From Mobula birostris (Eukaryota), in NCBI RefSeq assembly GCF_030028105.1, contig NC_092395.1, positions 44,110,459-44,174,458 on the forward strand: a stretch of 64,000 bases of DNA. Reading direction: 5' to 3'. The notes under the pieces were generated by a model. The model was given only the letters and a program-made list of their open reading frames with translations. It was not told the DNA's origin and made no database searches. The first letter of the stretch is position 1. Each line of letters starts with the position of its first letter. Made by a program: the position numbers and the translations under genes. Of the stretch, positions 6,221-46,401 are shown piece after piece.

Positions 6221-7344
6221 TTTGCCATTTACTTTCATTTCCTGGAATCTGGTTGTAGAACCTCCTCCAATAAGAATAGTCTCTGCCTTTAGACTCTGTC
6301 TGCATGCTTAATGATTTTTTTAAGAAATCTACTAACAGGTCACATTGAAACCTTCTCAGCTTCCCCGTCTGTGCAGAAAAACAGAGTGCCTTGCATTTTC
6401 ATTGGATATTAAAGGCTCGGTCAAGCATTTATTGAATCAACTGCTCTTGAGAAGGTGGTGATGAGCTGCCTTCTTGAAACTCTGCAATTTCTCTGAGAAA
6501 CTATTCCCACAGTAATAGTGAATGGGAAGATCCAGGAATTAGATTTAATTAAGATCCATAAATTTATGTCCTGCCAGTTGTGTAATTTCAAAGTGAACCT
6601 ACTGATGGTGGTACTCTGTGCTACATTCTAACCTGATCATATTGGTAGTAAAACTCACAGATTTAGGAGGTGTAGTTGGAGTAGCCTGAAGAAGTAACAG
6701 CAGGATATTTTATAAATGGATCACACTGCATCCATTGTACACCAGTGTTGAGGAAATGAAATTTCATGACTGTGGATGGGTGCCAATCGGCTGGGCTTCC
6801 ATTTCCCGATGGTATTAAGCTTTTAGAATATTGTTGTGGCTGGACTTATCTCTACAAATAGAGAGGTCCATGCTGTTCATGGGACTCAAAGCAGCAGAAA
6901 TGCAGTGTGATGGTTACTTACTTAATCCCATCACATCTACGGGGGCATAGACCACCGACAGCAGCTTGTCAGGGTCCTCTGTCCTGTGCCAGGACTTTAA
7001 GTTTTCCCCATGTCTAACCCACCTTCGAAGATCCTGTCTCTCCCAGGGATGAAAACCCTGGAGTTTCTGCTGGAGTTTCTGTACCTCTGGGTTTTCACAG
7101 GATGACGTTGCTAGCCCCATGCCCAATCCTACTCCAATCACAGCTGGGCTTAGGATCATCCATTGCAGAGTTTTTGTGATCGTGATGGCACGAAGTGCAA
7201 AGGTTCATAGTTCAAAACATTCTTCATGGACATGCACGATATTTTTGTCATCTGAACATTACTTGAAATTTACCAGCCCATACCTGAATGTGATGGTGAT
7301 GTAAAACCGGGAAATCAAATCAGCTCCTGCATATGTCTTCCCTT

Positions 7345-7560: not shown

Positions 7561-8212
7561 CAGTGAAAAAGATCGTTGGACCTGTACTCACTGAATGAAA
7601 TGAATTTGTGGGGTAGGGGTGTGGTGATCTCAGTGAAACCTACAGAATGTTGAAAGGACGAGATAAGGTGGATGTGCAGGAGATGTTTCCAACAGTGAGG
7701 GTGTCCAGAATTAGAGGACACGGCATCAGAATTGAAGGGTGACCCTTTAGGACAGAGGTAAGGAGGATTTTTTTTTGCCAGACAGTAGTAAATCTGTGGA
7801 ATTCTTGGCCACAGACTGCGGTGGAGGCCAAGGCTGTGGGCATATATTTAAAGTGTAAGTTGTCAGTTTTCTAATTGGTCAGGGTACAAAGGTTATGGCA
7901 AGAAGGCAGGTGTTTTGGTTTGAGTGGGATCCAGGATCAGCCATGATGGAATGGCAGAACAGACTTGATGGGCTGAATGGCCTAATTCTGCTCTTATGTC
8001 TTATAGTCTTATGGTCTTATACAGGGCTGGAGAAGGGGGAATCTGCTGGGAGAGGACAGAAAGCTTGAAAGAAAGAAAAGGGGGAGGAGCACCAGAGGGA
8101 GCTAATGAGTAGGTAAGGAGATAAAGTGAGAGAGGAAAATGGGAATGGGAAAGGTGAAGGAGGGCATTACTGGAAGTTGGATACCGGAAGTCTTCTCTTG
8201 ATCCCATTCCAG

Positions 8213-8561
8213 ATTCCGAGCCCTTCAATAAAACTTCCTGAGCTGTGAGTTGAGGAAATCTCTGCTAAAGCAGTGGGCACTTTAGTTTGCCTGGTCAGTA
8301 ACTGTCAGTGTCCTTCCATCTCGTCAGCTGGACAGTGGTCGGGTGTCCAACAAGCAGTGAGGAGCAAACCAGCGCGGCGAAGCGGAGCTCAACAGCTTCA
8401 GTTTCAGCAGCTACCTGACAGTGCCCGGTATAGAGTGGAGCATTTGGAGGGAGTGCACCTTCCCACTGCTCCAGTCTGTGCCGGGCAACATGAGGTAGAT
8501 GCTGAGCTCAACAAGCAGCAGCCCCGACAGCATCTGCATAGTGAGACAATCCAGCTGTTAA
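8213..8561 (+). pseudogene. Ig light-chain constant exon pseudogene (orphan)
   Basis: Acceptor cccattccAG at 8211-8212. Reads PSPSIKLPEL*VEEISAKAVGTLVCLVS..VSWTV..SFSFSSYLTVPGIEW..QSSC* (TAA 8559-8561). Clearly paralogous to the C exons at 37.0-37.4 and 44.7-45.0 kb. In-frame TGA at 8246-8248, frameshifts, and the second-Cys region is replaced. Confidence 0.93.
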
Positions 8562-8879
8562 ACAGAGCGTGGCTTCAGCTCGTTCACTTCCTCCATCACT
8601 CTGTGCTCGCTTTCTCTTCACTGTACATTGCATTTCTGTTCCGCTCTGTGGCTTCCACTATTGTCTGGAATATTTGTAGCCAAGGGTGATTTTGTTCTGT
8701 TTCTCCCACCGAGAGGCTACACAGGGTTTAAGTTCGCTAATTACTTGACTTCATTGGAAATTTCAACTAATGAATGGTTTTCTCTGGCTTTGGGGTGGAT
8801 ATAATTAAAATAATTAATATGTGTTTTTATGAGTCATCATCAGTGTTGCATTGACAGCCGGTAACGGCGAATGACTAAC

Positions 8880-8885
8880 AATAAA
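8880..8885 (+). terminator. polyA signal of the orphan C exon
   Basis: AATAAA in the context ctaacAATAAAggtgatcattgca, homologous to the polyA contexts at 36682-36687 and 44338-44343. Confidence 0.8.
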
Positions 8886-8959
8886 GGTGATCATTGCATG
8901 TATGATTCCAATGTGTGGGATTCCTCATTTCAGCTGTTCTTCCCATTTTGACATCGAGG

Positions 8960-9330
8960 AGCAGGTGGCAGGAGGGATGGGGGTGAGGAATGATAGGTGA
9001 GAGACAATGGGTGAGGGTTAAGGGATGATGGGTGAGGGATGAGGGATGAGGGTTCTGTGATGTGGGATGAGAGATGATGGATGAGAGATGTTGGATGATG
9101 TGTGAGGGATGAGGGATCCAGAATTTGGATGAGGGGTGAGGGATGAGGATTGGGTGAGGGATGAGGGGTGAGGGGTGTGGGATGGTGGGTGAGAGAAGAT
9201 GGGTGAGGGATGAGGGATCCAGAACAGGGATGGGGGTGAGGGAAGATGGGTGAGGAACCAGGGATAAGGGGTGTCGGAGACAGGATGTGGAATGTGGGAT
9301 AAGGAAACTGTGATAGGGATAAGGGATGAG
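8960..9330 (+). repeat. G-rich degenerate (GGGATGA)n-like low-complexity tract
   Basis: Repeated gatgagggatgaggg / gatgggtgaggga units. Confidence 0.9.
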
Positions 9331-20373: not shown

Positions 20374-21429
20374 TGTGACAACAGACCAAGTTATCAGAAG
20401 ACTGATGCCGATAAGAGAGATAAGAGAAAGAGAATGGGGAAACATTCAAAATGCTAATAAATGAGAGACGAGAGAGATTAACGAAAAGAGACACAGTTCC
20501 GAGTATTGTCAGAGACCGGTTGCTTTGAACCTGAACTGTTTGAAATTTGATGGACAGGCGATACCCCAGCAGGGGGATAAAAGGAACAGGTTCGCTAAGG
20601 CAAGGGACACACCACGACACCATGAGATAACGAGACCCTGGAAGTGCGTTGTACCCCCCCCGCCCCGCCAACAAGTTGGTGGAAGTTTTGGAGGTCTGGT
20701 CTGGGACCGCCCATAGACGCACAGGGTGAAAAGGTATGTAGCCCCCTGGCCACCCTCAGGGTCGCTCGGCTCGCTGTCGTCTAGGGAAACAGCCTCGGCC
20801 CCGCCAAACTGGGTAATTCGTTTGTGTGGATGCTGTGTGAGGTACCCCACCCCGCCCAAATAACAGACATTACACCAGATGCAATTAAATGATTTACAGT
20901 TTATAGATATTACTGGAACTATATAATTAAAAGAGAATAAAATATAAAAGGAAAATAAAAGGCGCCACACTTATCAAAGTTCAATCTCTTCGTGCACAAA
21001 AACCGTTGGAGCTCAAGGACCTTCTTCTTCACCCTGCAACCCCTCGGACCACCTCGACCGGCCGCCTGGGACCAACAACGGTGGTCGACCAGACGCTCCA
21101 CACGAGTCCGTCTCCGTCTCCTCGTCGAACGTCCCGCTCGGGGTCCGACCCCGTTAGCGGACTCACAGCACCTCGTCCATCCTCTGTCTCGCTCTCCCGC
21201 CTTCTCCCCCAAAACCCCGCGCATACAGTATCTTCAAATACACCAAAACCATAACAACTATCCCAATTGGTTAATAGCACCCTCTTATCACCCTCTAAAC
21301 CACAATAAGCTGCTAGCGCAAACTTTCTCAACGTTAAAGCACAACAAAGCCGCATTCCCCAGATTAACATAACAAAAACGCCATTTTAATTAGCCTCCGC
21401 AGTAACATAAAAATCGAAACCCCCTTACA

Positions 21430-24125: not shown

Positions 24126-25479
24126 CAATGTAGCCTCCCTGGCCACCCTCAGGGTCGCTCGGCTCGCTGTCGTCTAGGGAAACAGCCTCGGCCCCGCCAA
24201 ACTGGGTAATTTGTTTGTGTGGATGCTGTGTGAGGTACCCCACCCCGCCCAAATAACAGACATTACACCAGATGCAATTAAATGATTTACAGTTTATAGA
24301 TATTACTGGAACTATATAATTAAAAGAGAATAAAATATAAAAGGAAAATAAAAGGCGCCACACTTATCAAAGTTCAATCTCTTCGTGCACAAAAACCGTT
24401 GGAGCTCAAGGACCTTCTTCTTCACCCTGCGACCCCTCGGACCACCTCGACCGGCCGCCTGGGACCAACAACGGTGGTCGACCAGACGCTCCACACGAGT
24501 CCGTCTCCGTCTCCTCGCCGAACGTCCCGCTCGGGGTCCGACCCCGTTAGCGGACTCACAGCACCTCGTCCATCCTCTGTCTCGCTCTCCCGCCTTCTCC
24601 CCCAAAACCCCGCGCATACAGTATCTTCAAATACACCAAAACCATAACAACTATCCCAATTGGTTAATAGCACCCTCTTATCACCCTCTAAACCACAATA
24701 AGCTGCTAGCGCAAACTTTCTCAGCGTTAAAGCACAACAAAGCCGCATTCCCCAGATTAACATAACAAAAACGCCATTTTAATTAGCCTCCGCAGTAACA
24801 TAAAAATCGAAACCCCCTTACAGGTATGATCGGCGGGAACCTGATGTGTGTGTCCGCTCTTGCCTGGGTGCCGGGTTCACCACAGAAGAACGATGGTATC
24901 CGGAACGGAGGGGTCACAGTCGGTGACCTCAGAAGACATTACAAAGGGCTCGCCCGAAAGCTAACTGCGATGAATATCAGTTTGAATCCGATTTGAATAT
25001 CGTCAATCGCTCTCTTCCACCCCCCCCCCCCACCCGCCGACGGCACAACAGCGATTACTGCGAACTGAACTAAACTGAACTGAACTCTGCGTCACTTGAG
25101 ACTGATCACTTTACCCCTGGACTGCGATAGAGCTTGATTGATCCTATTATCCTAGTTCTGTGTACATGTGTGTTTTATCATTGCTAACCTGTTGCATTTA
25201 TCCTTACTATTAGAGTACTGTGTTACTTAATTCTTTAATAAAACTTTCTTAGTTCCAGAATTCCAGACTCCAACTAAGTGGTCCATTTCTGCTGGTTTGG
25301 CAACCCAGTTACGGGGTACGTAACAGCAGTATTAACTTTATAACCTTTCAATTAATTAAACAATTTACAAAATTAAAGCAGTTAAAGAAAAGAGACCACC
25401 TGGACTACCGGGAATTCAGTCTCTTGGCCTCCTGAATTTGTCAGTTTTTTTTTTAATCTGTTAGTACTATAAGGGTTCT

Positions 25480-31539: not shown

Positions 31540-34030
31540 TGTAAGAACATGAAAACGTACTTCTGCATGTATAAGAATTAAAATAGGAGCTATGTTGTTG
31601 TGACCATTACAGAGACCTGGATGGTGTAGGGGCTGGAATGGCTACTTCGATTACTAGGCTTTAGATGTTTCAGAAAGGACAGGGAGGGAGAGAAAAGAAG
31701 TGGATGCTTGGCATTGTTGATCAGAGAGAGTGTCACGGCTGCAGAAAAGGAGGAAGTCATGGAGGTGTTGCCTACCGAGTCTCTATGGTGGAAGTTAGGA
31801 ATAGGAAGGGGTCAATAACTCTACTGGGTGTTTTTATAGACCACCCAATAGTAACGGGGACATCGAGGAGAAGATAGGGAGATAGATTCTACAAAGGTGT
31901 AGTGATAACAGGTTTGTGGTGGGAGATCTCAATTTCCCAATTATCGATTGACATCTCCCTAAAGTGTTGTGTTTAGTTGTGCTGGCGTTTGTTAGGTGTG
32001 TTCAGGAAGGTTTCTTGACAAAATATGTAGATAAGCCAACAAGAGGAGAGGCTGTCCTTGATCTAGTATTGGGAAATGAACCTGGTCATGTCTCAGGTCT
32101 CTTAGTGGGAGAATATTTTGGAGATAGTAATCACAATTCTATCTCCTTTACCATAGCATTGCAGAGAGATAGGAACAGACAAGTTAGGGAAACGTTTAAT
32201 TGGAGCAAGGGGAAATATGAGGCTATCAGGCAGGATCTTGGAAGCATAAACTGGAAACAGATTGTCTCAGGGAAACGTGCGGAAGAATTGTGGCAAATGT
32301 TCAGGGGATATTTGTGTGCAGTTCTGCATAGTTACTTTCCAATGAGATGGAAAGGATGGCAAGGTACAGGAACTGTGGTGTACAAAGGCTGTTGGAAATC
32401 TAGTCAAGAAGAAAAGAACTAACGAAAGGTTCTAAAAACGGGGTAATGATGAAGATCTAGAAGATTATATGGCTAGCAGGAAGGAGCTTAAGAATAAAAT
32501 TAGGAGAGCCAGAAGGTGCAATGAGAGGGCCTTGGTGGACAGGATGAAGGAAAACCCCAAGGCATTCTACAATTATGCGAAGAGCAGGAGGATAAGATGT
32601 GGGAGAATAGGACCAATCAAGTGTGACAGTAGAAAAGTGTTTGTGGAACCGGAGGAGAAGCAGAGCTACTTAATGAATACTTTATTTCAGTATTCACGAA
32701 GGAAAAGGATCTTGGCGATTGTAGGGAAGACTTGCAACGTCTGACAAGCTTGAGCATGCAGATATTAAGGAAGAGGATGTGTTGGAGCTTTTGCAAAGTA
32801 CCATGTTTGGATAAGTCACCGGGAGTGGACGGCATGTACCACAGGCTACTGTGGAAAGCGAGGATGGAGACTGCTGAGTCTCTGGCGAAGATCATTGCAT
32901 CATCAGTGGGGACGGGAGAGGTTCCAGAGGATTGGAGGGTTGCGTATGGCTTTGTGAAAGTCAGGTCGTACCTTACTAGCCTGATTGAATTCTTGAGGAT
33001 GTGACCAAACATATCGATGAAATTAGAGCCGTAGATGTAGGGTATCTGGGTTTCAGCAAGGCATTTGATAAGGTACCCCATGCAAGTCTTATTTAGAAAG
33101 TAAAGAGGCATGGGATCGAAGGGTACATTGCCTTGTGGATGCAGAACTGCTTTGCCCACAGAAAGGAAAGTATGGTTGAAGACGAGTCATTTTCTGCATG
33201 GAGGTCGGTTACCAGTGGTGTGCCTTAGGGATCTGTTCTACCCTTCGTGATTTTTATAAATGTCTTGGATGAGTAAGTGGAGGGATGGGTAAATTTACTG
33301 ATGACACAAAGGTTGGGAGTGTTATGGATAGTGTGGAGGGCATTAATGGCGGGGTACTCTTGGCAGTGTGGGAGATCAAAGGGTTCATGGTGTCCGAGTC
33401 CACAGGACACTCAAAGCTGCTACGGAGGTTGACCCTGTGGTTAAGAAGGCATACGGTGCATTGGCCTTCATCAATTTTGGGATTGAGTTGAAGAGCCGAG
33501 AGGTAATGTTGCAGCTATATAGGAACCTGGTTAGACCCCACTTGGAGTACTGTGCTCAATTCTGGTCGCCTCACTGCAGGAAGTACGTGAACACTATAAA
33601 AAGGGTGCAGAGAAGGTTTAAAAGGATGTTGCCTGGATTGGGGAGCATGCCTTATGAGAATTGGTTGAGTGAACTTGGCCTTTTCCACTTGTACCGACAG
33701 AAGATGAGAGATGACCTGATAGAGGTGTTTAAGATAATGAGAGGCATTGGTCGTATGGATATCAAGGCGTTTTCCCAAGGCTGAAATGCCTAGGGCGAGA
33801 GGGCATAGTTTTAGGGTGCTTGGAGGTAGGTACAGAGGAGATGTCAGGGGAAAGCTTTTTACGCGGAGAATGGTGAGTGCGTGGAAATGGGCTGCTGGCG
33901 GCGGTGGTGGCGGCGGAAATGATCGGGTCTTTTAAGAGACTCCTGAATGGTTAAATGGAGCTTGGAAAAATAGAGGACTATGGATCGTTCTAAGGTAAGA
34001 ACATTTTGGGCACAGCATTCTATGTTTCTA
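31540..34030 (+). mobile_element. CR1 LINE (endonuclease and RT), degraded
   Basis: ORFs 31964-32422 (KPTRGEAVLDLVLGNEPG), 32469-32744 (KENPKAFY), 33368-33784 (LVRPHLEYCAQFWSPH). Confidence 0.93.
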
Positions 34031-34039
34031 TGTTTCTAA

Positions 34040-34205
34040 CATGGGACACACCTGTCCTTCTCCTCCCTCCCCACCACATTTATTCCATTCCCGTCCGAGT
34101 GAAGGGTGTCGCCCCGAAACATCGACTGCTTATTCGTTTTCATATTCATGCCGTCTGGCCTGCTGGACGTCCTCTAGCTTTTGTGTGTATTCACTGAATA
34201 AACAT
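34040..34205 (+). mobile_element. Penelope pLTR remnant, paralogous to 43190-43355
   Basis: Both copies share gaaacatcgactg..ttttcatattcatgc..ggcctgctgga..aataaaca; degenerate hammerhead at about 34093-34127. Confidence 0.75.
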
Positions 34206-34239
34206 AATCCTGCGTTAGCTGTTGCCGTGCTGAACATAT

Positions 34240-35980
34240 TGACTTTAGGGAACACCGAAATTACCTGGGTATGGCCAGATTAAGAAAAACCACACCTAGT
34301 TTACGTATGTGTCCATCCCTGTACACCCCGGGAAAGCCGATTTACAGGTGTGGAAATTTAATAGAGCCCTGCTGAGGCGAAGGCCACTGACAGAGTCCTT
34401 TATCCCGGGCCAGTCTTTCAAGTAGTAGCGCATCTTGGAAAATCCTTACTCTCCCCGGGGATAGGGTCTTTGGAGCTTCCGTAGGCGTTTCTACAGCTCT
34501 GTTTTTTTCTTCCGGAAAGTGGTTGTATCTCCATGTCCAATCTTCCTTCTTTCCCAGCCCTGTTTGGGACCTTCCACGGCGGAATTCCCAGAGTTGAATG
34601 TTGGTGCATTTCACTCAGCTGCAGGAACATCTTTACAGGAACCGCTCAAAAGGCAAAGCCTTCCGGAGAAACCAGCTGTCCATATTAGGAAGGAGAATGG
34701 CCTGTCCATATATGGCAGATTGATTCCAGCAGGACCACTCCACGGCAGCTACTCTTTGAATATTTGCACAGTATGGTTGTCGCCTATTTTAGTATTATAA
34801 TGGCAATTCCATGTATATTGGCGGAACAGATCTCACTCTGAATGGATTACAGAAGTTAATCATTTGTTATGGGAACCCGCAAGAAATACAATCGTTCAAT
34901 TGGTCTCATTTTTCAGGGCAAGCACTGGAAGACTGGTCTGCCAGCAATGGCATTCATTGCGTGTTTCACACATCCTATTACTCCCAGGCATTAAAAGAAT
35001 GAATGGACTCTTCGCCAATTAACGTGAACCCATTCCTTGCTGATAACACTATTCCAAGCCTTCTACAACCTGAACAACGGGTCCTTACCCCAAGATCACA
35101 AATATACTTCAGAACAGGAGGAAGATGCGGGCGCCAAAGGGCCTAATACAGAGGGGAGGGAAAGTGGAAACATGATAAAAATCGGACCGATACTGTTTTT
35201 TCAGCATTGAGAGAGAAGGAGCGAGATGCCTGAATTAAGGGGTGGGGGTGGGGGAGGGAAAGGAGTCTAGCTAGAAAGTGATAGCTGAAACAAGGCGGAT
35301 GGGAAAGGTCAAGGAATAGGGAAAAAAGAATCTGACAGGAGAGAAGAGCGGACAATGTGAGAAAGGTACGGAGGGTGGGACCCAGGACCCTGTATGGAGG
35401 TGACGGAGCAGATGTGCGGGAGGGAAAGTATGTGAGCATATTCCAACTTAATGACTTTGCAAGGGGGAGATGGTGGGAAACGGAAATGATCATTCCTACG
35501 AGTGCAAGAGAAAGAATACCTGATGTGTTTAAACAGGAGGAATAAAAAGTGGAATAATTTTAAAACTCTGAAAACCTGATAATAACGGTGCATTGTTCTG
35601 CTTCAGGTAGACTGAAAGTGCTAGAACTATTGCCATCAGCAATACAGTATAGGTCTTCCTATAATCGAGATATAGACAGTACCGTCTGGGTGATTGGAAA
35701 GGACACGCGGGGGAAGACATTCTCTAATGTGATAACACCCCTTGCCCTGACACGCTCGTGGAAGCTAAGGAACAAACTTTCAAATGCAATTTTGGCTTAG
35801 CCTCCCATCATAAGTTGCTATAGTCGCACTATTTGTTGTGCATGTTCTGCAGCTAATTTAGCCGACTGCCCTTATGAAGTCTATTGTGATAATTCTACTG
35901 CTTAAACGATTATATTATAAGTACTACCTGTATTTGGCCTGTATTTTGCTCTTGTATAATCTACCAAAGAGGAATCAACG
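34240..35980 (+). mobile_element. Class III (ERV-L-like) endogenous retrovirus pol fossil (RNase H remnant, integrase), interrupted by a Penelope fragment at about 35130-35580
   Basis: HT*FTYVS (WFTDGS-like); GEWPVHIWQID; GPL; IMAIPC; NGLQKLIICYGNPQEIQS..SHFSGQALEDWSASNGIHCVFHTSYYSQA; RMNGL; QAFYNLNN; C-terminal TVWVIG. Confidence 0.85.
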
Positions 35981-35987
35981 GGTGGGG

Positions 35988-36350
35988 TGTAAGGAAAATG
36001 TTAAAATTGATTCCTTGTTAGTCTACACTTAATGTGTAACACACAGTGGGGGTTTGTAAGATGTTACTCTGGAATGTGGGAATAATTTGAGAAAGGATAA
36101 AGGGGCTTGTCCACAACAATATTTGGAGAAATGAGTGTGAGTAATATTCTACATCCCCAAGAGTAGATAATGGTGGAATCGCCCTTTGGCTGTGAAGACA
36201 AAATGATTCAGCAGCCTGGTACTGTCCCACGAGAAATGATTCGGGCAAGGAGACTTGAAGGGTATTAAACAAGGGAATATTTTGTACGTTGGGATCTTTT
36301 CTTATGCTGGGTCACGGCTAACGCTGGAGTTGGAAATAGATACAAGGACA
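35988..36350 (+). mobile_element. Putative 3' LTR of the ERV fossil
   Basis: PPT-like GGGTGGGG (35980-35987) directly followed by TGTAAGG; the 3' boundary is uncertain. Confidence 0.5.
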
Positions 36351-36681
36351 TCGGGGGAGAGCCAATCCTCCCCACTCCGACCTCCTACCCTGTTCGCTTA
36401 CAAGTCTCTTTTTCTCACCTCAACAATTCCGTCCACCCCCGGGGCTGTCTGTTTTTCTGTCGGTGTCTCTCACTCTCTTCCTCTCTCCACTGCCCCCTTA
36501 TTCCCTTCTCCGCCAACGGCAAGACTGTAGGATTACTCACCTTATTTGAACTCACGGACGACATTGTTCGGTGCCGTTCAACCCGCGCGAGTCTCCTCCC
36601 TCCTCCCACACAAATGAGAATGGGAACCGCATAAAAGAGAAAAAAAACTGATACATGGAAATCATTCCTGCACTGAACACC

Positions 36682-36687
36682 TTTATT
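36682..36687 (-). terminator. polyA signal, IgL cluster 1
   Basis: AATAAA on the minus strand, about 350 nt after the ancestral stop; conserved in three paralogs. Confidence 0.85.
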
Positions 36688-37034
36688 AGTAGTTTATGGC
36701 GGTTGCCATCTGTCAGTCTGATACTGCTGAGAAATCATCAATAGACTCATTAAGAACTTCAGTTAGATCCATCCCTGGAAACAGAGAAAACAATTCACTC
36801 GTTCATATTTCTAATGCTGACAAGTAACAGACCACTTTTACCCCACGTAGCTTCCCGGTGGGTGAAACGAAACAAAATCAGCCTCGGGTGCAAATATTCT
36901 CACAACACAATGGTAACCACAGAGAGCTGATCAGAGTTTGGTGTGCAGTGAAGAGAGTGGTAGAGGGTGAAAAATGCAAGAAAAACAGTTGACTCCTGCA
37001 GTTCGGAGCAAACAAATACGAAACCGCGCTCTGT

Positions 37035-37356
37035 TTAACAGTCGGATTGTCCGTCTGTGCGGATGTTGCCGAGGCTGCTCCTAGTTCAACCACGCAGGAG
37101 TATATTTTGCTACTGCTCCAGTCTGTGCCGGGAAACGTCAGGTAGCTGCTGAGACTGAAAGTGCTGTCTGTGTCCCGCCTCACTGCGCTGGTTCTCACCT
37201 CACGGCTGATCGGACTCCCATCCACTGTCCAGCTGACGACAGGGAAGCCCACCGACAGTTTACTAACCAGGCAAACTAAGGTGCCGGTTCCCTTAGCGGA
37301 GATCTCCTCGGCAGACGACTCAAGCAGCTTTATTAAAAAGTCCGGGAGCTGCTGAT
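37035..37356 (-). pseudogene. Ig light-chain C exon, cluster 1 (1-nt deletion near the end)
   Basis: Acceptor ccgatccAG (37358-37357). DQQLPDFLIKLL..TLVCLV..VSWTVDG..YSCVV keeps both Cys and the Trp. A GCA-ACA to GCA-CA deletion removes the terminal Cys and the stop (ancestral TAA 37035-37037); read-through runs to 36878. Confidence 0.95.
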
Positions 37357-38545
37357 CTGGATCGGGAACACGAGGAGACATGTTTCTGATCAAGGATGAT
37401 TTATCGACATTTTACAACTGGATGGAAGCACGAATGAAAGGTTTCGTCTTCCCATAGTGGGGCCCAGGGTTTCACTAAGGAACAGGACAGTGCTCACGGA
37501 GAGCAGTGCATTTTAGTCAACACTGAAAGACTGGACCTTTGCGGTCAATCCGTGTTTGAGGACTTTCCTGTTGAGACGCAGGATTACAGCATCGCCCGCA
37601 AGTGACCACCGCAGCTCCCGGGATCTACTCGGACCTGTGTTACCAGTGACACATACCCATCCACTCATCACTAATGAGCCCCTTCCTACCTGTGACACCC
37701 ACAGCTGTAGCGAGAAAATATCTCATAGCCTGCGTTTACCGAATGCGTACGGCGAAACCTGCGCGGTCCTGAGTTTCAAAGAGCTGGTTTAGGAAAGTCA
37801 CCCTGTGATCTGTGACGATGTAGAAGGAAGGTGGATTTCTCCACACACCCGAAACTCCGGACTTAGTTGGTGCACCGACCGAAATCACTGAGGGTCCGTA
37901 CCCCAAAACGAGCAGCGCTCGTGAAAACATGGCAGGAGAGAGGAGGCGAGGACTAGATAATTGGTTGGGTGTGTCCAAGAGTGTTTCAACAGACGCTGAG
38001 AAATGGAAGTTCAGTGAAAATACGACGGAGGTTTCACTGGAGCATCCTTATACAACAACATGAAACTTGTCGTTCTGTTGTCTTGACAACGCTGGACTAC
38101 ATCAAGTCCACAGTGATACCTCGGCTACAACATGACAAAGTGATACCTGGACCGCATTTTGGGAAGCTGGAACTCCTCACGCAGGCTTCTGACAAACCAG
38201 AGCAAAATCGGCCAGACTACTGCGACTGCAACCGCGCAGAGAGTTGGGCGGTCAATTTCAGAAACGAAATATTAAAGTGCAGATGCCTGGGACACAACAT
38301 ACGGCACCAGAGAGAAAACACAAGCGAAAAGAGTTGTTTTTGTTTAAAGACGATAATAGTTCACAACACAACTCTATCCTCACTGAACACATCTCTGTAT
38401 ACATTCGATACGGACCACGGATTGGATGGTAAATTTGTGTTTTCATTTTAAATTAGCCAAGAAATAGTAATGTAAATATCGTCAAATGTCAGGTGACCGT
38501 ATTCAGGCAGCTACTAATTACAGGAGGGATTTCCCTGTCACTTAC

Positions 38546-38810
38546 CTGTAACAAAGAGTTTGGTCCATGCACCGAACAAGTAATAATTGTCCGATGAATC
38601 CCGCTTTCCGTAGTAATAGATGGCAGCGTCATTCATCTCCACGTTTTTTTATGATTAACTGGTAAACGGTGCCGCCGCTGTTGGATGTCGACGTGAAACG
38701 GTCGCTGCTAAACCCAGACGGTAGGCCGACGCGCTGTACGAGTGATCGTAGTACAGGATCCATTGTGGGGTTGTTCCCAGTGTTTGCTTGCACCAGTTAA
38801 CAACATAGCT
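38546..38810 (-). pseudogene. Germline-joined VJ exon, cluster 1; 5'-truncated and inactivated
   Basis: SYVVNWCKQTLGTTPQWILYYDHSY..DRFTSTSNSGGTVYQLII..DAAIYYYGKRDSSDNYYLFGAWTKLFVT then GTAAGT donor. -1 and +1 frameshifts, Cys104 to Tyr; FR1, leader and promoter are absent. Confidence 0.95.
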
Positions 38811-43359: not shown

Positions 43360-44045
43360 CTCTGTTATCGAGGGCGTTATGAGACCCGACCTCCAGATGA
43401 TGACGTGGGTGCTCACCAAGGTCTCCGCTAACAAAGCGTCGAGGGAAAGGCAAATCTCAATTATAAAGCGGAAGTGGTACATTGTAGAAACAATAAGTGA
43501 GGACTTGGAGGGTGTCAACATGTAGCATGCCCGTGGGTGGATGTACGGAAACTATCGAACCTCCCGTCCCAGTGACACCCTCCCTCCCCGACCTCACACC
43601 ACCGATTATATATGGGGATTGCCGTATTAGGAAACACGATATCTGGTTTACGGAAGTTTCCAACCCTGTACGCCCCGGAAAGCCGGCCTACTTAAGTGGA
43701 AACTTACTGGGGCATAGGCCGCTGACAGCAATTGGCACCATGTCCAATCCTCCTTTCCCTGACCTGTCTGGGAGCGTCCATGGAGGCGTTACAGGAGTGG
43801 AAAGTCGGTGCATTTCGCTCAGCCACAGGAACATCTTTTCAGCACAGGGTCAAAAGGAGAGCTTTCAGGTGAAACTAGCTGCCCATATTAGGAAGAAACC
43901 GGCCTGCTCAGACACGGCAGATTGATTCCATCAAAACCCCGCCACGGCAGCAACGATTTAAACATTTGCACAGTGTGCTTGACGCATATTGGAGTCGTAT
44001 AATAACTATTCCCTGTATATAGGCGGTTCAAGATCATACTCCAAC
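43360..44045 (+). mobile_element. Class III (ERV-L-like) pol fossil, paralog of 34240-34850
   Basis: 43379-43525 reads MRPDLQMMTWVLTKVSANKASRERQISIIKRKWYIVETISEDLEGVNM*; then DIWFTEVS; RQIDSIKTPPRQQRFKHLHSVLDAYWSRIITIPC. Confidence 0.88.
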
Positions 44046-44337: not shown

Positions 44338-44343
44338 TTTATT
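44338..44343 (-). terminator. polyA signal, IgL cluster 2
   Basis: AATAAA on the minus strand, about 345 nt after the stop. Confidence 0.85.
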
Positions 44344-44688
44344 AGCAGTTTGTGGCAGTTACCAGCTGTCAGTCTGATACTGATGAGAAATCATTAGCAC
44401 ATAGATTAATAACTTTAATTAGATCCATCCCAGGTCACAGATAAAAACAATTCACCAGCTGATATTTCTAATGATGACAAGAAACAGGACATTTTTACCC
44501 TACGTAACTTCTCGGCGAATGAAACAGAACAAAATCAGTCTCGGGTGCAAATATTCTAACAACACAATGGAAACCACAGAGCTCTGATCAGAGTTCGGAG
44601 TACAGTGAAGGGAGTGATAGAGGGGGTGAAAATGCAAAAAAAAAATCTCCTGTTGTTCGGAGCAAACAAGTACGAAACCGCGTTCTGT

Positions 44689-45012
44689 TTAGCAGCTGGA
44701 CTGTGTGACTGTTGCGGATGTTGACGAAGCTGCTCCTTGGTTAACCACGCAGGAGTACCTCTTCCCACTGCTCCAGTCTGTGCCGGGCACCGTCAGGTAG
44801 CTGCTGAGACTGAAAGTGCTGTCCGTGTCCCGCCTCACCGCGCTGGTTTTCACCTCACGGCTGGTCAGACTCCCGTCCACTGTCCAGCTGACGATAGGAA
44901 AGCCCACCGACAGCTTACTGACCAGGCAAACTAAGGTGCCGGTTCCTTTAGCGGAGATCTCCTCGGAAGGCGGCCCAAGCAGTTTTACTGAAGGGTCGGG
45001 GGAGCTGCTGAT
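44689..45012 (-). CDS. Ig light-chain constant exon, cluster 2 (one extra C near the 5' end as given)
   Basis: Acceptor ccgatccAG (45014-45013). PDPSVKLLGPPSEEISAKGTGTLVCLVSKLSVGFPIVSWTVDG..SYLTVPGTDWSSGKRYSCVVNQG..TQSSC* has all C1 hallmarks and the terminal Cys. The C5 run puts it out of frame with J. Confidence 0.95.
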   Translation of the reverse strand: MSSSPDPSVKLLGPPSEEISAKGTGTLVCLVSKLSVGFPIVSWTVDGSLTSREVKTSAVRRDTDSTFSLSSYLTVPGTDWSSGKRYSCVVNQGAASSTSATVTQSSC

Positions 45013-46044
45013 CTGGATCGGGAACAAGAGGAGACAAGTTTCAGGTCACTGAATATCTCGCGATATTTCACAGTTGGCTGGAAGCGCGAATGTGAAGTTC
45101 CAGCTTTCAAGAATGGGGCCCAGGGTTTCGCTGGGGTGCGCGTCAGTGCCGATGGAGGGCAGTGCATTTTAGTCAATACTGAAGAACTGGACATTTGCGG
45201 TCAAATCGCCATTTGAGGATTTTCCTGTAGAGTAGCTGGATTACAGCATCACCAGCTCGGTGACATCACCTCCAGCTCTTGGGACCTACCTTAGCCTGTG
45301 CCAACAATGCACGTTCCTTCCCTTTGCTCCATCCACTCAACACCAACGCGCCGCCTCCCACCCGTGTCACCCAGAGCTGTAATGGGAGTAAACCCATTTC
45401 TGCGCTTACCCAGAGTGCAGGGCAACATGTGCGTGGTCCGGAGTTTCACAGAGCTGGTTTAGGGAAGTCACACTGTGACGATGCGGAAGCATTTACTGTG
45501 GGTGAAGGAAGGTGGGATTCTCCCCAGACCCGAAGCTCTGGCCTTAGTCTGTGTAGCGACCGGAATCACTGAGCGGACACGCACCAAAAGGAGCAGTGCT
45601 CAAGTGAAAAGGTTGAAGGAGAGAGGAGGCAATTGGAGGGTGTCTGTAGGACTGTTCTACCCGGACCCGGAAAAATGGAAGTTCAGTGAAAGTACGAGGG
45701 AGGTTTCGCTAGAGCATCCTCATACAATAACTTTCAACTTTTAGTTCTGTTGCCTTGATAACCGTGGGCTACATCATGTCCCTGGTGATACCTCGGGCCG
45801 CATTCCGAGAAGCTGGAACTCCTCATGCTGGCTTCCAACAAACCAAAGCAAAAGCGGCCAAACTGATAGGATTGGACTCGCGCAAATATTGAGTTGGGCG
45901 TTCAATTTCAGAAACGATACGTGGCACGACTGGATGGTAAATCGGCGTTTTCATTATCAAATTCGCCAAGAAATAATAATGTATAAATTATTAATTACCA
46001 GGTGACCATATTCATGCAGCTAGAGGGTTTTCCCAGACACTTAC

Positions 46045-46401
46045 CTGTAACAAAGAGCTTGGTCGCTGGGCCGAACAAGTAATAGCTGCCCGTTGTATCC
46101 CACTTTCCGCAGTAATAGACGGCTGCGTCGTTCAGCTCCACTTTTTTTATGATTAACTGGTAAACGGTACCGGCGCTGTTGACTGTCGACGTGAAACGGT
46201 CGCTGCTAAACCCAGGCCCGTAGGTCGGGGAGCTGTCCGAGTGATAATAGTACAGGATCCATTGTGGAACTGTTCCCGGTGTCTGCTTGTGCCAGCTAAC
46301 AGGATAGCTAGCCTTTGTTCCGATGTTACATTCCAACGTGGCCGTGCCTCCTGGACTCAGCGACACAGTCGGAGGCTGAGTCGGAGACTGGGATTCTCCA
46401 G
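46045..46401 (-). CDS. Germline-joined VJ exon, Ig light chain, sigma/sigma-cart type (long CDR2)
   Basis: Acceptor tttttacAG (46403-46402), then an open frame GESQSPTQPPTVSLSPGGTATLEC..VSWHKQTPG..YYYHSDSSPTYGPGFSSDRFTS..DAAVYYCGKWDTTGSYYLFGPATKLFVT, donor GTAAGT at 46044. No RSS between V and J. Confidence 0.97.

What the first reader, a model, noticed from the sequence alone, without database searches (positions are those of the whole stretch)
34240..36350. Class III (ERV-L-like) retrovirus fossil in a cartilaginous-fish-type genome, fixed behind the IgL polyA site
Combining the two paralogs gives: tether MRPDLQMMTWVL..SIIKRKWYI (recalled ERV-L: MRPELPIMNWVL..SIIKWKWYI), RNase H WFT(D)(G)S, IN GEWPVHIWQID.GPL..QQRF..LDAY.., SHFSGQALEDWSASNGIHCVFH.SYYSQA..RMNGL, QAFYNLNN (ERV-L QKAVYALNQRP), then a PPT and LTR with little room for env. 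These motifs point to the ERV-L/ERV-S group rather than epsilon-like or foamy-like viruses. To my knowledge non-foamy class III ERVs are poorly catalogued in chondrichthyans; I cannot verify novelty here.
Basis: partly seen in the sequence, partly recalled or inferred. Interest (0 to 1): 0.72.

Follow-up and report, generated by a model that had tools for sequence, protein, structure and literature searches.

The report
Retrovirus fossil hitchhiking with antibody genes
A broken piece of an old retrovirus related to mammalian ERV-L/ERV-S lies just behind 10 of 26 antibody light-chain genes in this fish (likely a ray), where it was likely inserted once and then copied passively with the genes; viruses of this group were already reported from a shark.

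Summary
Window 34231-36360 is a decayed + strand provirus end: start of RNase H, two foreign inserts, integrase, purine tract, and an LTR cut at about 365 of 640 nt. The paralog at 43360-44045 keeps the tether. The integrase falls in the ERV-L/S-like clade with mouse ERV-L (99/97); grouping with SnRV-like or epsilon-like rows is rejected (AU p 4e-10, 2e-6). Its family is dispersed genome-wide, with 5-bp target duplications, a tRNA-Ser primer site, no dUTPase and no env; sister lineages carry a gamma-type env. So it is ERV-S-like, not ERV-L proper. The remnant sits behind 10 of 26 lambda-type C exons with shared junctions; it diverges at least as fast as the flank and has lost its TATA box in 7 of 7 copies: one old insertion duplicated with the genes, without sign of use. 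A whale-shark element (Rh_ty_ERV3) already stands beside HERV-L/S in Xu et al. 2018. What looks undescribed is a ray-wide clade of such lineages (100/96). The 8 earlier scan notes returned did not concern this element.

The parts
34231..34366 (+). Decayed end of tether linker / start of RNase H of copy A (5' limit of the remnant; everything upstream is lost)
   Evidence: 72-73% DNA match to copy B 43600-43706 and to paralogs whose same stretch hits the RNase H start of P0015/P0012
34367..34590 (-). SINE-like dispersed repeat inserted where most of RNase H and the integrase zinc finger are missing; shared by the IgL-linked copies
   Evidence: 73-75% match over about 200 nt to unrelated loci L011, L015-L020; present in L073, L079, L091 and in part in B-type copies
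34601..35165 (+). Integrase core (WQID at 34713, SHFSG at 34904, AFYNLNN at 35058), broken by stops and at least three frame changes
   Evidence: tblastn E 8e-15 with P0015; 64-69% DNA identity to dispersed family A copies; tree
35166..35418 (.). Second foreign repeat inserted in the integrase 3' part
   Evidence: Absent from dispersed copies L051, L052, L054; matches unrelated repeat copies in L069 and L055
35419..35987 (+). Integrase C-terminal domain remnant, about 450 nt without env or dUTPase similarity, and purine tract (35967-35987)
   Evidence: 59% over 995 columns with L051 from here into the LTR; env and dUTPase profiles find nothing
35988..36360 (+). 3' LTR, cut after about 365 of about 640 nt; TATA box decayed (TATTAAAC at about 36270); points towards the 3' end of the IgL gene
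   Evidence: 60-65% to family LTRs; alignment A3
36682..36687 (-). AATAAA polyA signal of the IgL gene behind which copy A lies (about 320 nt from the LTR cut)
37020..38810 (-). Lambda-type IgL gene A: C exon 37345-37058 and germline-joined VJ 38810-38547 with 2 stops (pseudogene)
   Evidence: isotype label recalled from the germline-joined layout
43360..44045 (+). Copy B: tether, RNase H start, SINE stub, first half of integrase core; 3' integrase, purine tract and LTR deleted
   Evidence: tblastn 42-49 bits with P0015/P0012; same deletion in L072 and L075
44338..46400 (-). Intact lambda-type IgL gene B: polyA signal 44338-44343, C exon 45036-44701, germline-joined VJ 46399-46046

Best explanation
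This is a decayed 3' piece of an env-less, dUTPase-less endogenous retrovirus of the ERV-L/S-like (class III) clade that likely inserted once, long ago, about 300 nt behind the polyA signal of one light-chain gene, was then cut down by deletions and later insertions, and was likely copied passively as that gene duplicated into 10 of the 26 genes of the cluster. Shown: identity of the domains, clade, family anatomy (LTR TG...CA of about 640 nt, 5-bp target duplication, tRNA-Ser primer site), shared junctions in the 10 copies, neutral-looking decay. Inferred: single insertion; spread of the family by copying inside the germ cell after loss of env; no present function.
For: Integrase tree, 52 rows: window rows inside family A+E (100/98) inside a 28-row clade with mouse ERV-L (99/97); AU rejects joining them to SnRV-like (p 4.4e-10) or epsilon-like rows (p 2.4e-6). 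RT-tether tree: ERV-L/S-like clade 100/100, ray clade 100/96. Dispersed family: 741 DNA candidates (40 scored), 935 LTR candidates (40 scored). Target duplication of 5 bp: at least 4 of 5 letters equal in 9 of 12 solo LTRs with clean ends, mean 78% against 21% for 4 or 6 bp. Primer site in family A copy L195 matches the genome's tRNA-Ser(aga) at 17 of 18. No env or dUTPase hit in 13 of 13 family A or IgL-linked 3' regions. Remnant behind 10 of 26 C exons, all at C30 43.88-44.21 Mb; same LTR junction in 6 of 7 LTR-bearing copies. Integrase distances track flank distances (r 0.84, 28 pairs; mean K2P 0.23 against 0.19 flank and 0.16 C exon); changes per site by codon position 0.37/0.45/0.49. TATAAAA of dispersed LTRs is altered in 7 of 7 linked copies.
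Against: The window integrase row has only 110 residues and the window holds no RT, so its place rests on integrase and DNA similarity. No named SnRV, HERV-S, XtERV-S or Rh_ty_ERV3 sequence was in the trees; the labels SnRV-like, gamma-like, epsilon-like, Gypsy and 'mouse ERV-L' rest on motifs, Pfam domains and cluster names. The linked copies are further from dispersed family A copies (K2P 0.38-0.52) than these are from each other (0.32), so they may be a separate subfamily. The slight rise from first to third codon position does not exclude weak early constraint. Without a root, loss of the remnant in the 16 other genes is not excluded. Every family A copy seen is internally deleted, so an env-bearing parent may have been missed.
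Confidence: 0.88

Rival explanations
1. The cut LTR was kept as a regulatory part of the light-chain genes (3' enhancer, antisense promoter or terminator).
For: It lies about 320 nt behind the polyA signal, facing the gene, and the U3 part with the TATA region is the part that survives in 7 copies.
Against: 16 of 26 C exons lack the remnant; the three copies that lost the LTR have intact V and C (window B, L072, L075), while 5 of 7 LTR-bearing genes are broken; TATA box altered in 7 of 7; the integrase piece diverges faster than the flank.
Confidence: 0.04
2. The convergent LTR harmed the genes next to it, so that LTR-bearing genes decayed and copies that deleted the LTR survived.
For: 5 of 7 LTR-bearing genes are broken, 0 of 3 LTR-deleted ones.
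Against: The copies are not independent (window A, L073 and L091 are one clade, as are the three B-type copies); several remnant-free genes are broken too (L086, L087 second exon, L089, L092); L074 keeps LTR and an intact gene.
Confidence: 0.05
3. The element is an SnRV-like, foamy-like or Gypsy element whose likeness to ERV-L comes from decay and short alignments.
For: Best PDB hits of a family A integrase piece are foamy integrases, though at E 0.28; window pieces are short.
Against: AU tests; feline foamy virus Pol and Gypsy rows lie outside the 99/97 clade; shuffle control; 5-bp target duplication and the KWKWY-type tether.
Confidence: 0.03

Closest known systems
Rh_ty_ERV3 of the whale shark (Xu et al. 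2018, PMC6001957; seen: passages, S2 Fig tip labels, first part of the protein in supplement 7)
   Same: Chondrichthyan element listed at the head of clade Huo next to No_fu_ERV1, HERV-L, murine ERV-L and HERV-S (label order only). Its Gag end resembles, by eye, the Gag remnants in family A loci L010 and L012 and in P0015.
   Different: Not compared by computation (sequence cut in the supplement, not loadable). I saw no account there of primer site, target duplication, env loss or an IgL link.
HERV-S and XtERV-S (Yedavalli et al. 2021, PMC8278194; seen: passages)
   Same: Class III gag-pol with YIDD, tether and serine primer site; gamma-type env as in sister lineages B, C, D here; ERV-S lacks dUTPase, as do the ray elements.
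   Different: The window's family has no env; XtERV-S has a dUTPase after integrase; neither sequence was in my trees.
Mammalian ERV-L (mouse Pol P0012; the name MuERV-L is recalled, the cluster is mouse and has dUTPase after integrase)
   Same: Tether and integrase motifs, 50-54% RT identity to sister lineages, no env.
   Different: No dUTPase, Ser and not Leu primer site; outside the ray clade in the RT tree.
ERV-SA.a-Ppe (Chen et al., bioRxiv 10.1101/2021.11.23.469661; seen: passages and section 8; supplements closed)
   Same: Class III Pol joined to a gamma-type env, the layout of lineages B, C, D.
   Different: The authors call their class III group SnRV-related; the host code Ppe is not spelled out in the text (a sawfish is my guess); cannot tell whether it is this clade.
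Unnamed Gag-Pol proteins annotated in other rays (Hemitrygon akajei P0015, P0196; Narcine bancroftii P0375; Hypanus sabinus P0377)
   Same: Same ray clade (100/96); Gag members named 'Fv1-like' by the source.
   Different: Other lineages than the window's family; P0015 is an uninterrupted 1520-aa frame.

Membership tests
Retroviridae (endogenous retrovirus) | Pol order RT, tether, separate RNase H, integrase; LTR with TG...CA ends | tested here: met
   Copies A and B hold tether, RNase H start, integrase, LTR in this order; L070 and L054 of the family add RT pieces; solo LTR ends
ERV-L/S-like class III clade (part of clade Huo) | Integrase and RT group with ERV-L to the exclusion of SnRV-like, foamy, gamma and epsilon rows | tested here: met
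   99/97; 100/100; family A RT pieces only in the quick tree, inside the ray clade (98)
ERV-L/S-like class III clade (part of clade Huo) | YIDD at the RT active site | tested here: inconclusive
   YIDD in sister lineages (L024, P0015), YMDD in L039; not readable in the window or in the decayed family A copies
ERV-L/S-like class III clade (part of clade Huo) | 5-bp target site duplication (convention recalled for ERV3-type elements) | tested here: met
   9 of 12 solo LTRs with clean ends (6 of 18 set aside for unclear ends)
ERV-L proper (HERV-L, MuERV-L) | dUTPase after the integrase core | tested here: not met
   No tblastn hit in 30 loci; profile hits only on the C-terminal-domain part; no PF00692 in the ray proteins
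ERV-L proper (HERV-L, MuERV-L) | tRNA-Leu primer site (recalled) | tested here: not met
   L195 matches tRNA-Ser(aga) 17 of 18, L063 tRNA-Ser(cga) 17 of 18, L062 15 of 18; the window has no 5' end
ERV-L proper (HERV-L, MuERV-L) | No env | tested here: met
   0 of 13 family A or linked 3' regions hit env profiles; the two controls that hit were in the seed
ERV-S-like (HERV-S, XtERV-S) | tRNA-Ser primer site | tested here: met
   One readable family A copy (L195) and two sister-lineage copies; decayed in L051
ERV-S-like (HERV-S, XtERV-S) | Gamma-type env (ISD, CX6CC-type TM) | tested here: not met
   Absent from the window's family; present in sister lineages (TLV_coat E 8e-8 in L025; L057, L058, L063, L148)
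ERV-S-like (HERV-S, XtERV-S) | Groups with named HERV-S or XtERV-S Pol | not testable with these tools
   No sequence carrying these names was returned
SnRV-like ERVs | Groups with SnRV-like Pol | tested here: not met
   AU p 4.4e-10; rows labelled SnRV-like by RT motifs like Ca_mi_ERV1, SnRV itself not in the set
Epsilon-like ERVs | Groups with epsilon-like Pol | tested here: not met
   AU p 2.4e-6 against 5 rows
Foamy-like ERVs and Gypsy elements | Groups with foamy or Gypsy integrase | tested here: not met
   Feline foamy virus Pol (named) and 5 Gypsy rows lie outside the 99/97 clade; no AU test run

The most novel reading that the evidence does not exclude
Rays carry their own, so far undescribed radiation of ERV-S-like retroviruses: at least five lineages with a serine primer site and no dUTPase that form one clade across electric rays and stingrays and descend from an infection of the ray (or shark-and-ray) ancestor. 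Some lineages kept a gamma-type env; the branch that holds the window's family lost it and multiplied inside the germ line into hundreds of deleted copies and solo LTRs, an independent parallel to mammalian ERV-L/MaLR. The IgL-linked copy then dates the split of a light-chain subfamily.
Probability: 0.35. Interest if true: 0.55.

Novelty: new member of a known kind. Interest (0 to 1): 0.3.

Why it matters
The fragment itself is inert. It confirms and fills in a thin part of the retroviral fossil record: ERV-L/S-like viruses in cartilaginous fish, known from about one published shark lineage, turn out to be a clade of several lineages in rays, with env kept in some and lost in others. The insertion is also a clean marker for the order of duplications in a germline-joined light-chain cluster (10 marked genes, three of them with a second shared deletion).

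Tried and rejected
Pfam on the window frames: nothing. Viral contigs with alignment A1: 37 pattern matches, none confirmed. PDB holds no ERV-L-like Pol; best RT hits are MLV 117, foamy 79, Ty3 46 bits against 401 for the mouse protein. Rfam on 33900-36400: 0 matches, so the Penelope label for the flanking repeat (34083-34217) stays untested. Sequencing runs: no RNA holder listed; four runs of one study, guessed to be RNA and holding 5-13% of the words, gave contigs on V, C and a V-C joint (45000 to 46045) and none on 35576-36832; this says nothing about expression of the remnant. Window copy B and three other tether-only rows could not be placed in the RT-tether tree (no profile hit). The first 91-row integrase tree finished only as a quick search and was replaced by a 52-row careful tree; L073 (53 residues) and L034 were left out, and 27 long or redundant rows were dropped. 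Absolute dating was not attempted: the only shark rate read (2.2e-10 per site and year, assumed in PMC4422223) would give ages beyond the age of the host lineage for LTR pairs at 75-77% identity. Paper searches found no description of an ERV behind chondrichthyan light-chain genes or of this family; the journal version of Chen et al. is not held and its preprint supplements are closed, and Repbase/Dfam could not be searched, so absence from print is not shown. Earlier scan notes concerned Penelope hammerheads and GPR139-like receptors.

Full report
Setting. The window is G000:C30:44110459-44174458 of a 4.0-Gb genome. It holds two minus-strand light-chain genes with germline-joined VJ exons (A at 37020-38810, B at 44338-46400), the layout recalled for lambda-type genes of cartilaginous fish. 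The host is likely a ray: the genome's retroviral lineages group with proteins annotated in Hemitrygon, Hypanus and Narcine, and an earlier scan note (e1-10347120, unchecked) says the same.

Observation. Pfam finds nothing in the window frames, but natural ERV-L/S-type Pol proteins score 37-61 bits on copy A and 41-49 on copy B (five of six; the mole protein misses B) against shuffle maxima of 23-32, whereas ten foamy, SnRV-like, epsilon-like, gamma-like and Gypsy proteins stay at 17-30, at or within 4 bits of the shuffle maxima. Copy A reads: RNase H start (34231-34366), a 220-nt SINE-like repeat in place of most of RNase H (34367-34590), integrase core (34601-35165), a second foreign repeat (35166-35418), integrase C-terminal remnant and about 450 nt to a purine tract, then an LTR from 35988 that is cut at about 36360. 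Copy B has lost everything after the first half of the integrase core.

The family. A DNA search with copy A gave 741 candidates (40 scored): the cluster paralogs at 70-89%, dispersed integrase copies at about 70%, and copies of the inserted repeat. A protein search with a dispersed integrase piece gave 150 scored hits of 1990 candidates. I fetched 40 loci of 10 kb. The copies closest to the window (family A: L051-L055, L065-L070) are all internally deleted; L051 is a 2.9-kb element with LTRs at 77% identity and aligns to the window from integrase to LTR. The LTR search gave 935 candidates (40 scored), mostly solo LTRs of 610-700 nt, longer where interrupted, with TG...CA ends; 9 of 12 with clean ends have a 5-bp target duplication (6 of 18 set aside). 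One family A copy has a readable primer site, 17 of 18 letters complementary to the genome's tRNA-Ser(aga). No env and no dUTPase similarity was found between integrase and LTR in 13 of 13 regions. Sister lineages B, C and D have RT, tether SIVKWKWY, RNase H WFTDGS, integrase and an env, with a gamma-type TM seen in B and D; they also lack dUTPase.

Placement. References came; names exist for some (mouse cluster P0012 with dUTPase after integrase, killifish, amphibians, lungfish, bichir, owls, three rays, feline foamy virus). Other labels rest on motifs. Each genomic copy was read on its own, with X at stops and frame breaks. In the careful integrase tree (52 rows, 169 columns) the window row groups with two cluster paralogs (100/99), inside family A plus lineage E (100/98), inside a 28-row clade with mouse ERV-L (99/97); foamy, gamma-like, epsilon-like, SnRV-like and Gypsy rows lie outside. 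AU tests reject a clade of the window rows with 8 SnRV-like rows (one of them an unclassified carp protein; p 4.4e-10) or 5 epsilon-like rows (p 2.4e-6). In the careful RT-tether tree (44 rows, 351 columns) the ERV-L/S-like clade has 100/100 and all 13 ray rows form one clade at 100/96, beside a weakly held group of mouse ERV-L and mostly dUTPase-bearing fish, amphibian and bird elements. Family A RT pieces are too decayed for that tree; in the quick tree they fall in the ray clade (98). Bichir and lizard rows branch outside both groups, so the tree does not simply follow the hosts.

Relation to the IgL genes. A search with the C exon lists 26 copies on C30 at 42.9-44.2 Mb. I read the DNA behind all 26, about 7 kb in most cases. 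The remnant is behind 10, all at 43.88-44.21 Mb; 7 keep the cut LTR, with the same junction in 6, and 3 share the deletion seen in copy B. The other 16 share flank sequence only from about 90 nt past the polyA signal inwards, and the four of them put in the flank tree form one clade. Integrase distances among 8 linked copies follow flank distances (r 0.84, 28 pairs) and are larger on average (0.23 against 0.19, C exon 0.16); changes per site by codon position are 0.37, 0.45 and 0.49. The TATAAAA box of dispersed LTRs is altered in 7 of 7 linked copies. The three genes that lost the LTR are intact; 5 of the 7 that keep it are broken, but these copies are not independent. The largest distances among linked copies (about 0.3) are like those among dispersed family A copies (0.32), so duplication likely began soon after the insertion.

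Mechanism. Shown: domain identity, clade, family anatomy, shared junctions, decay. Inferred: a member of an env-less family, primed by tRNA-Ser and copied inside germ cells, integrated about 300 nt behind one light-chain polyA signal, facing the gene; deletions removed the 3' part of the LTR with the adjoining flank, most of RNase H and the 5' half; a SINE-like repeat entered before the duplications; the unit was then copied with the gene. I put 0.88 on this, 0.04 on regulatory use, 0.05 on harm to neighbours, 0.03 on another class of element.

Comparison with print. Xu et al. 2018 (PMC6001957; passages, S2 Fig labels, parts of supplement 7) place class III ERVs in clade Huo, found in all major vertebrate groups; the tip labels at the head of that clade read Rh_ty_ERV3, No_fu_ERV1, HERVL, Murine_ERVL, Nan_par_ERV9, HERVS, while Rh_ty_ERV2 stands next to snakehead retrovirus. 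Only the label order was visible, not the branches. The visible Gag end of Rh_ty_ERV3 resembles Gag remnants of family A by eye. Yedavalli et al. 2021 (PMC8278194, passages) describe XtERV-S and note that ERV-S has env and lacks dUTPase. Chen et al. (bioRxiv 2021.11.23.469661, passages and section 8) name ERV-SA.a-Ppe, class III Pol with gamma-type env; its host and sequence are in supplements that I could not see. PMC12690878 and PMC10435555 (passages) added nothing. Eight searches found no paper on this family or on an ERV behind these genes.

Verdict. It works like an env-less ERV-L-type retroelement and belongs to the ERV-L/S-like clade; it is not ERV-L proper (no dUTPase, Ser primer) and lacks the env of ERV-S. 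New member of a known kind; interest 0.3. The boldest reading left open is an undescribed ray-wide radiation with independent env loss (probability 0.35, interest 0.55).

Noticed in passing
window 8190-8974 (+): A further, inverted and broken C exon of the remnant-free type, with an insertion; not among the 26.
   Followed up: partly
L079 (G000:C30:43938000-43947999): Tandem unit of about 4 kb holding C exon, flank and retroviral remnant without a V exon: the duplication broke inside the remnant.
   Followed up: partly
L062, L100-L120 (C17, C24, C38): Lineage C copies are younger (LTR pair 96.9% in L062) and many lie in near-identical segmental repeats on C17 and C24.
   Followed up: no
L061:6651-7454 and L056-L058: Env remnants of two different SU types (26% identical) in lineages B and C; in L061 a TM match lies inverted downstream.
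   Followed up: no
L127-L146: The genome also holds at least two SnRV-like and two epsilon-like retroviral lineages, some with open frames of 500-870 codons.
   Followed up: partly
L084, L085, L086, L089: A Gypsy-type element lies 3-7 kb behind several remnant-free C exons, a second possible marker of duplication order.
   Followed up: no
G000:C33:19.4-42.7 Mb: 44 of 47 exact matches to a tRNA-Ser(aga) 3' end are spread along one contig, a large tRNA gene array.
   Followed up: no
window 34367-34590; L011, L015-L020: Short dispersed repeat of about 230 nt whose tail looks like that of RTE-type LINEs (recalled); a further copy at window 6967-7172.
   Followed up: partly
window 20736-21429 and 24128-24822: A 695-nt direct repeat at 99% identity, 3.4 kb apart; possibly the LTRs of a young element.
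   Followed up: no
P0015 cluster: Stingray proteins of this clade include an uninterrupted Gag-Pol frame and Gag-only products named 'Friend virus susceptibility protein 1-like' by the source; whether any is a domesticated Gag was not examined.
   Followed up: no
G000:C3:96.1-97.3 Mb: A second cluster of 13 C exons at about 50% identity (another light-chain type); no remnant behind the two that were read.
   Followed up: partly
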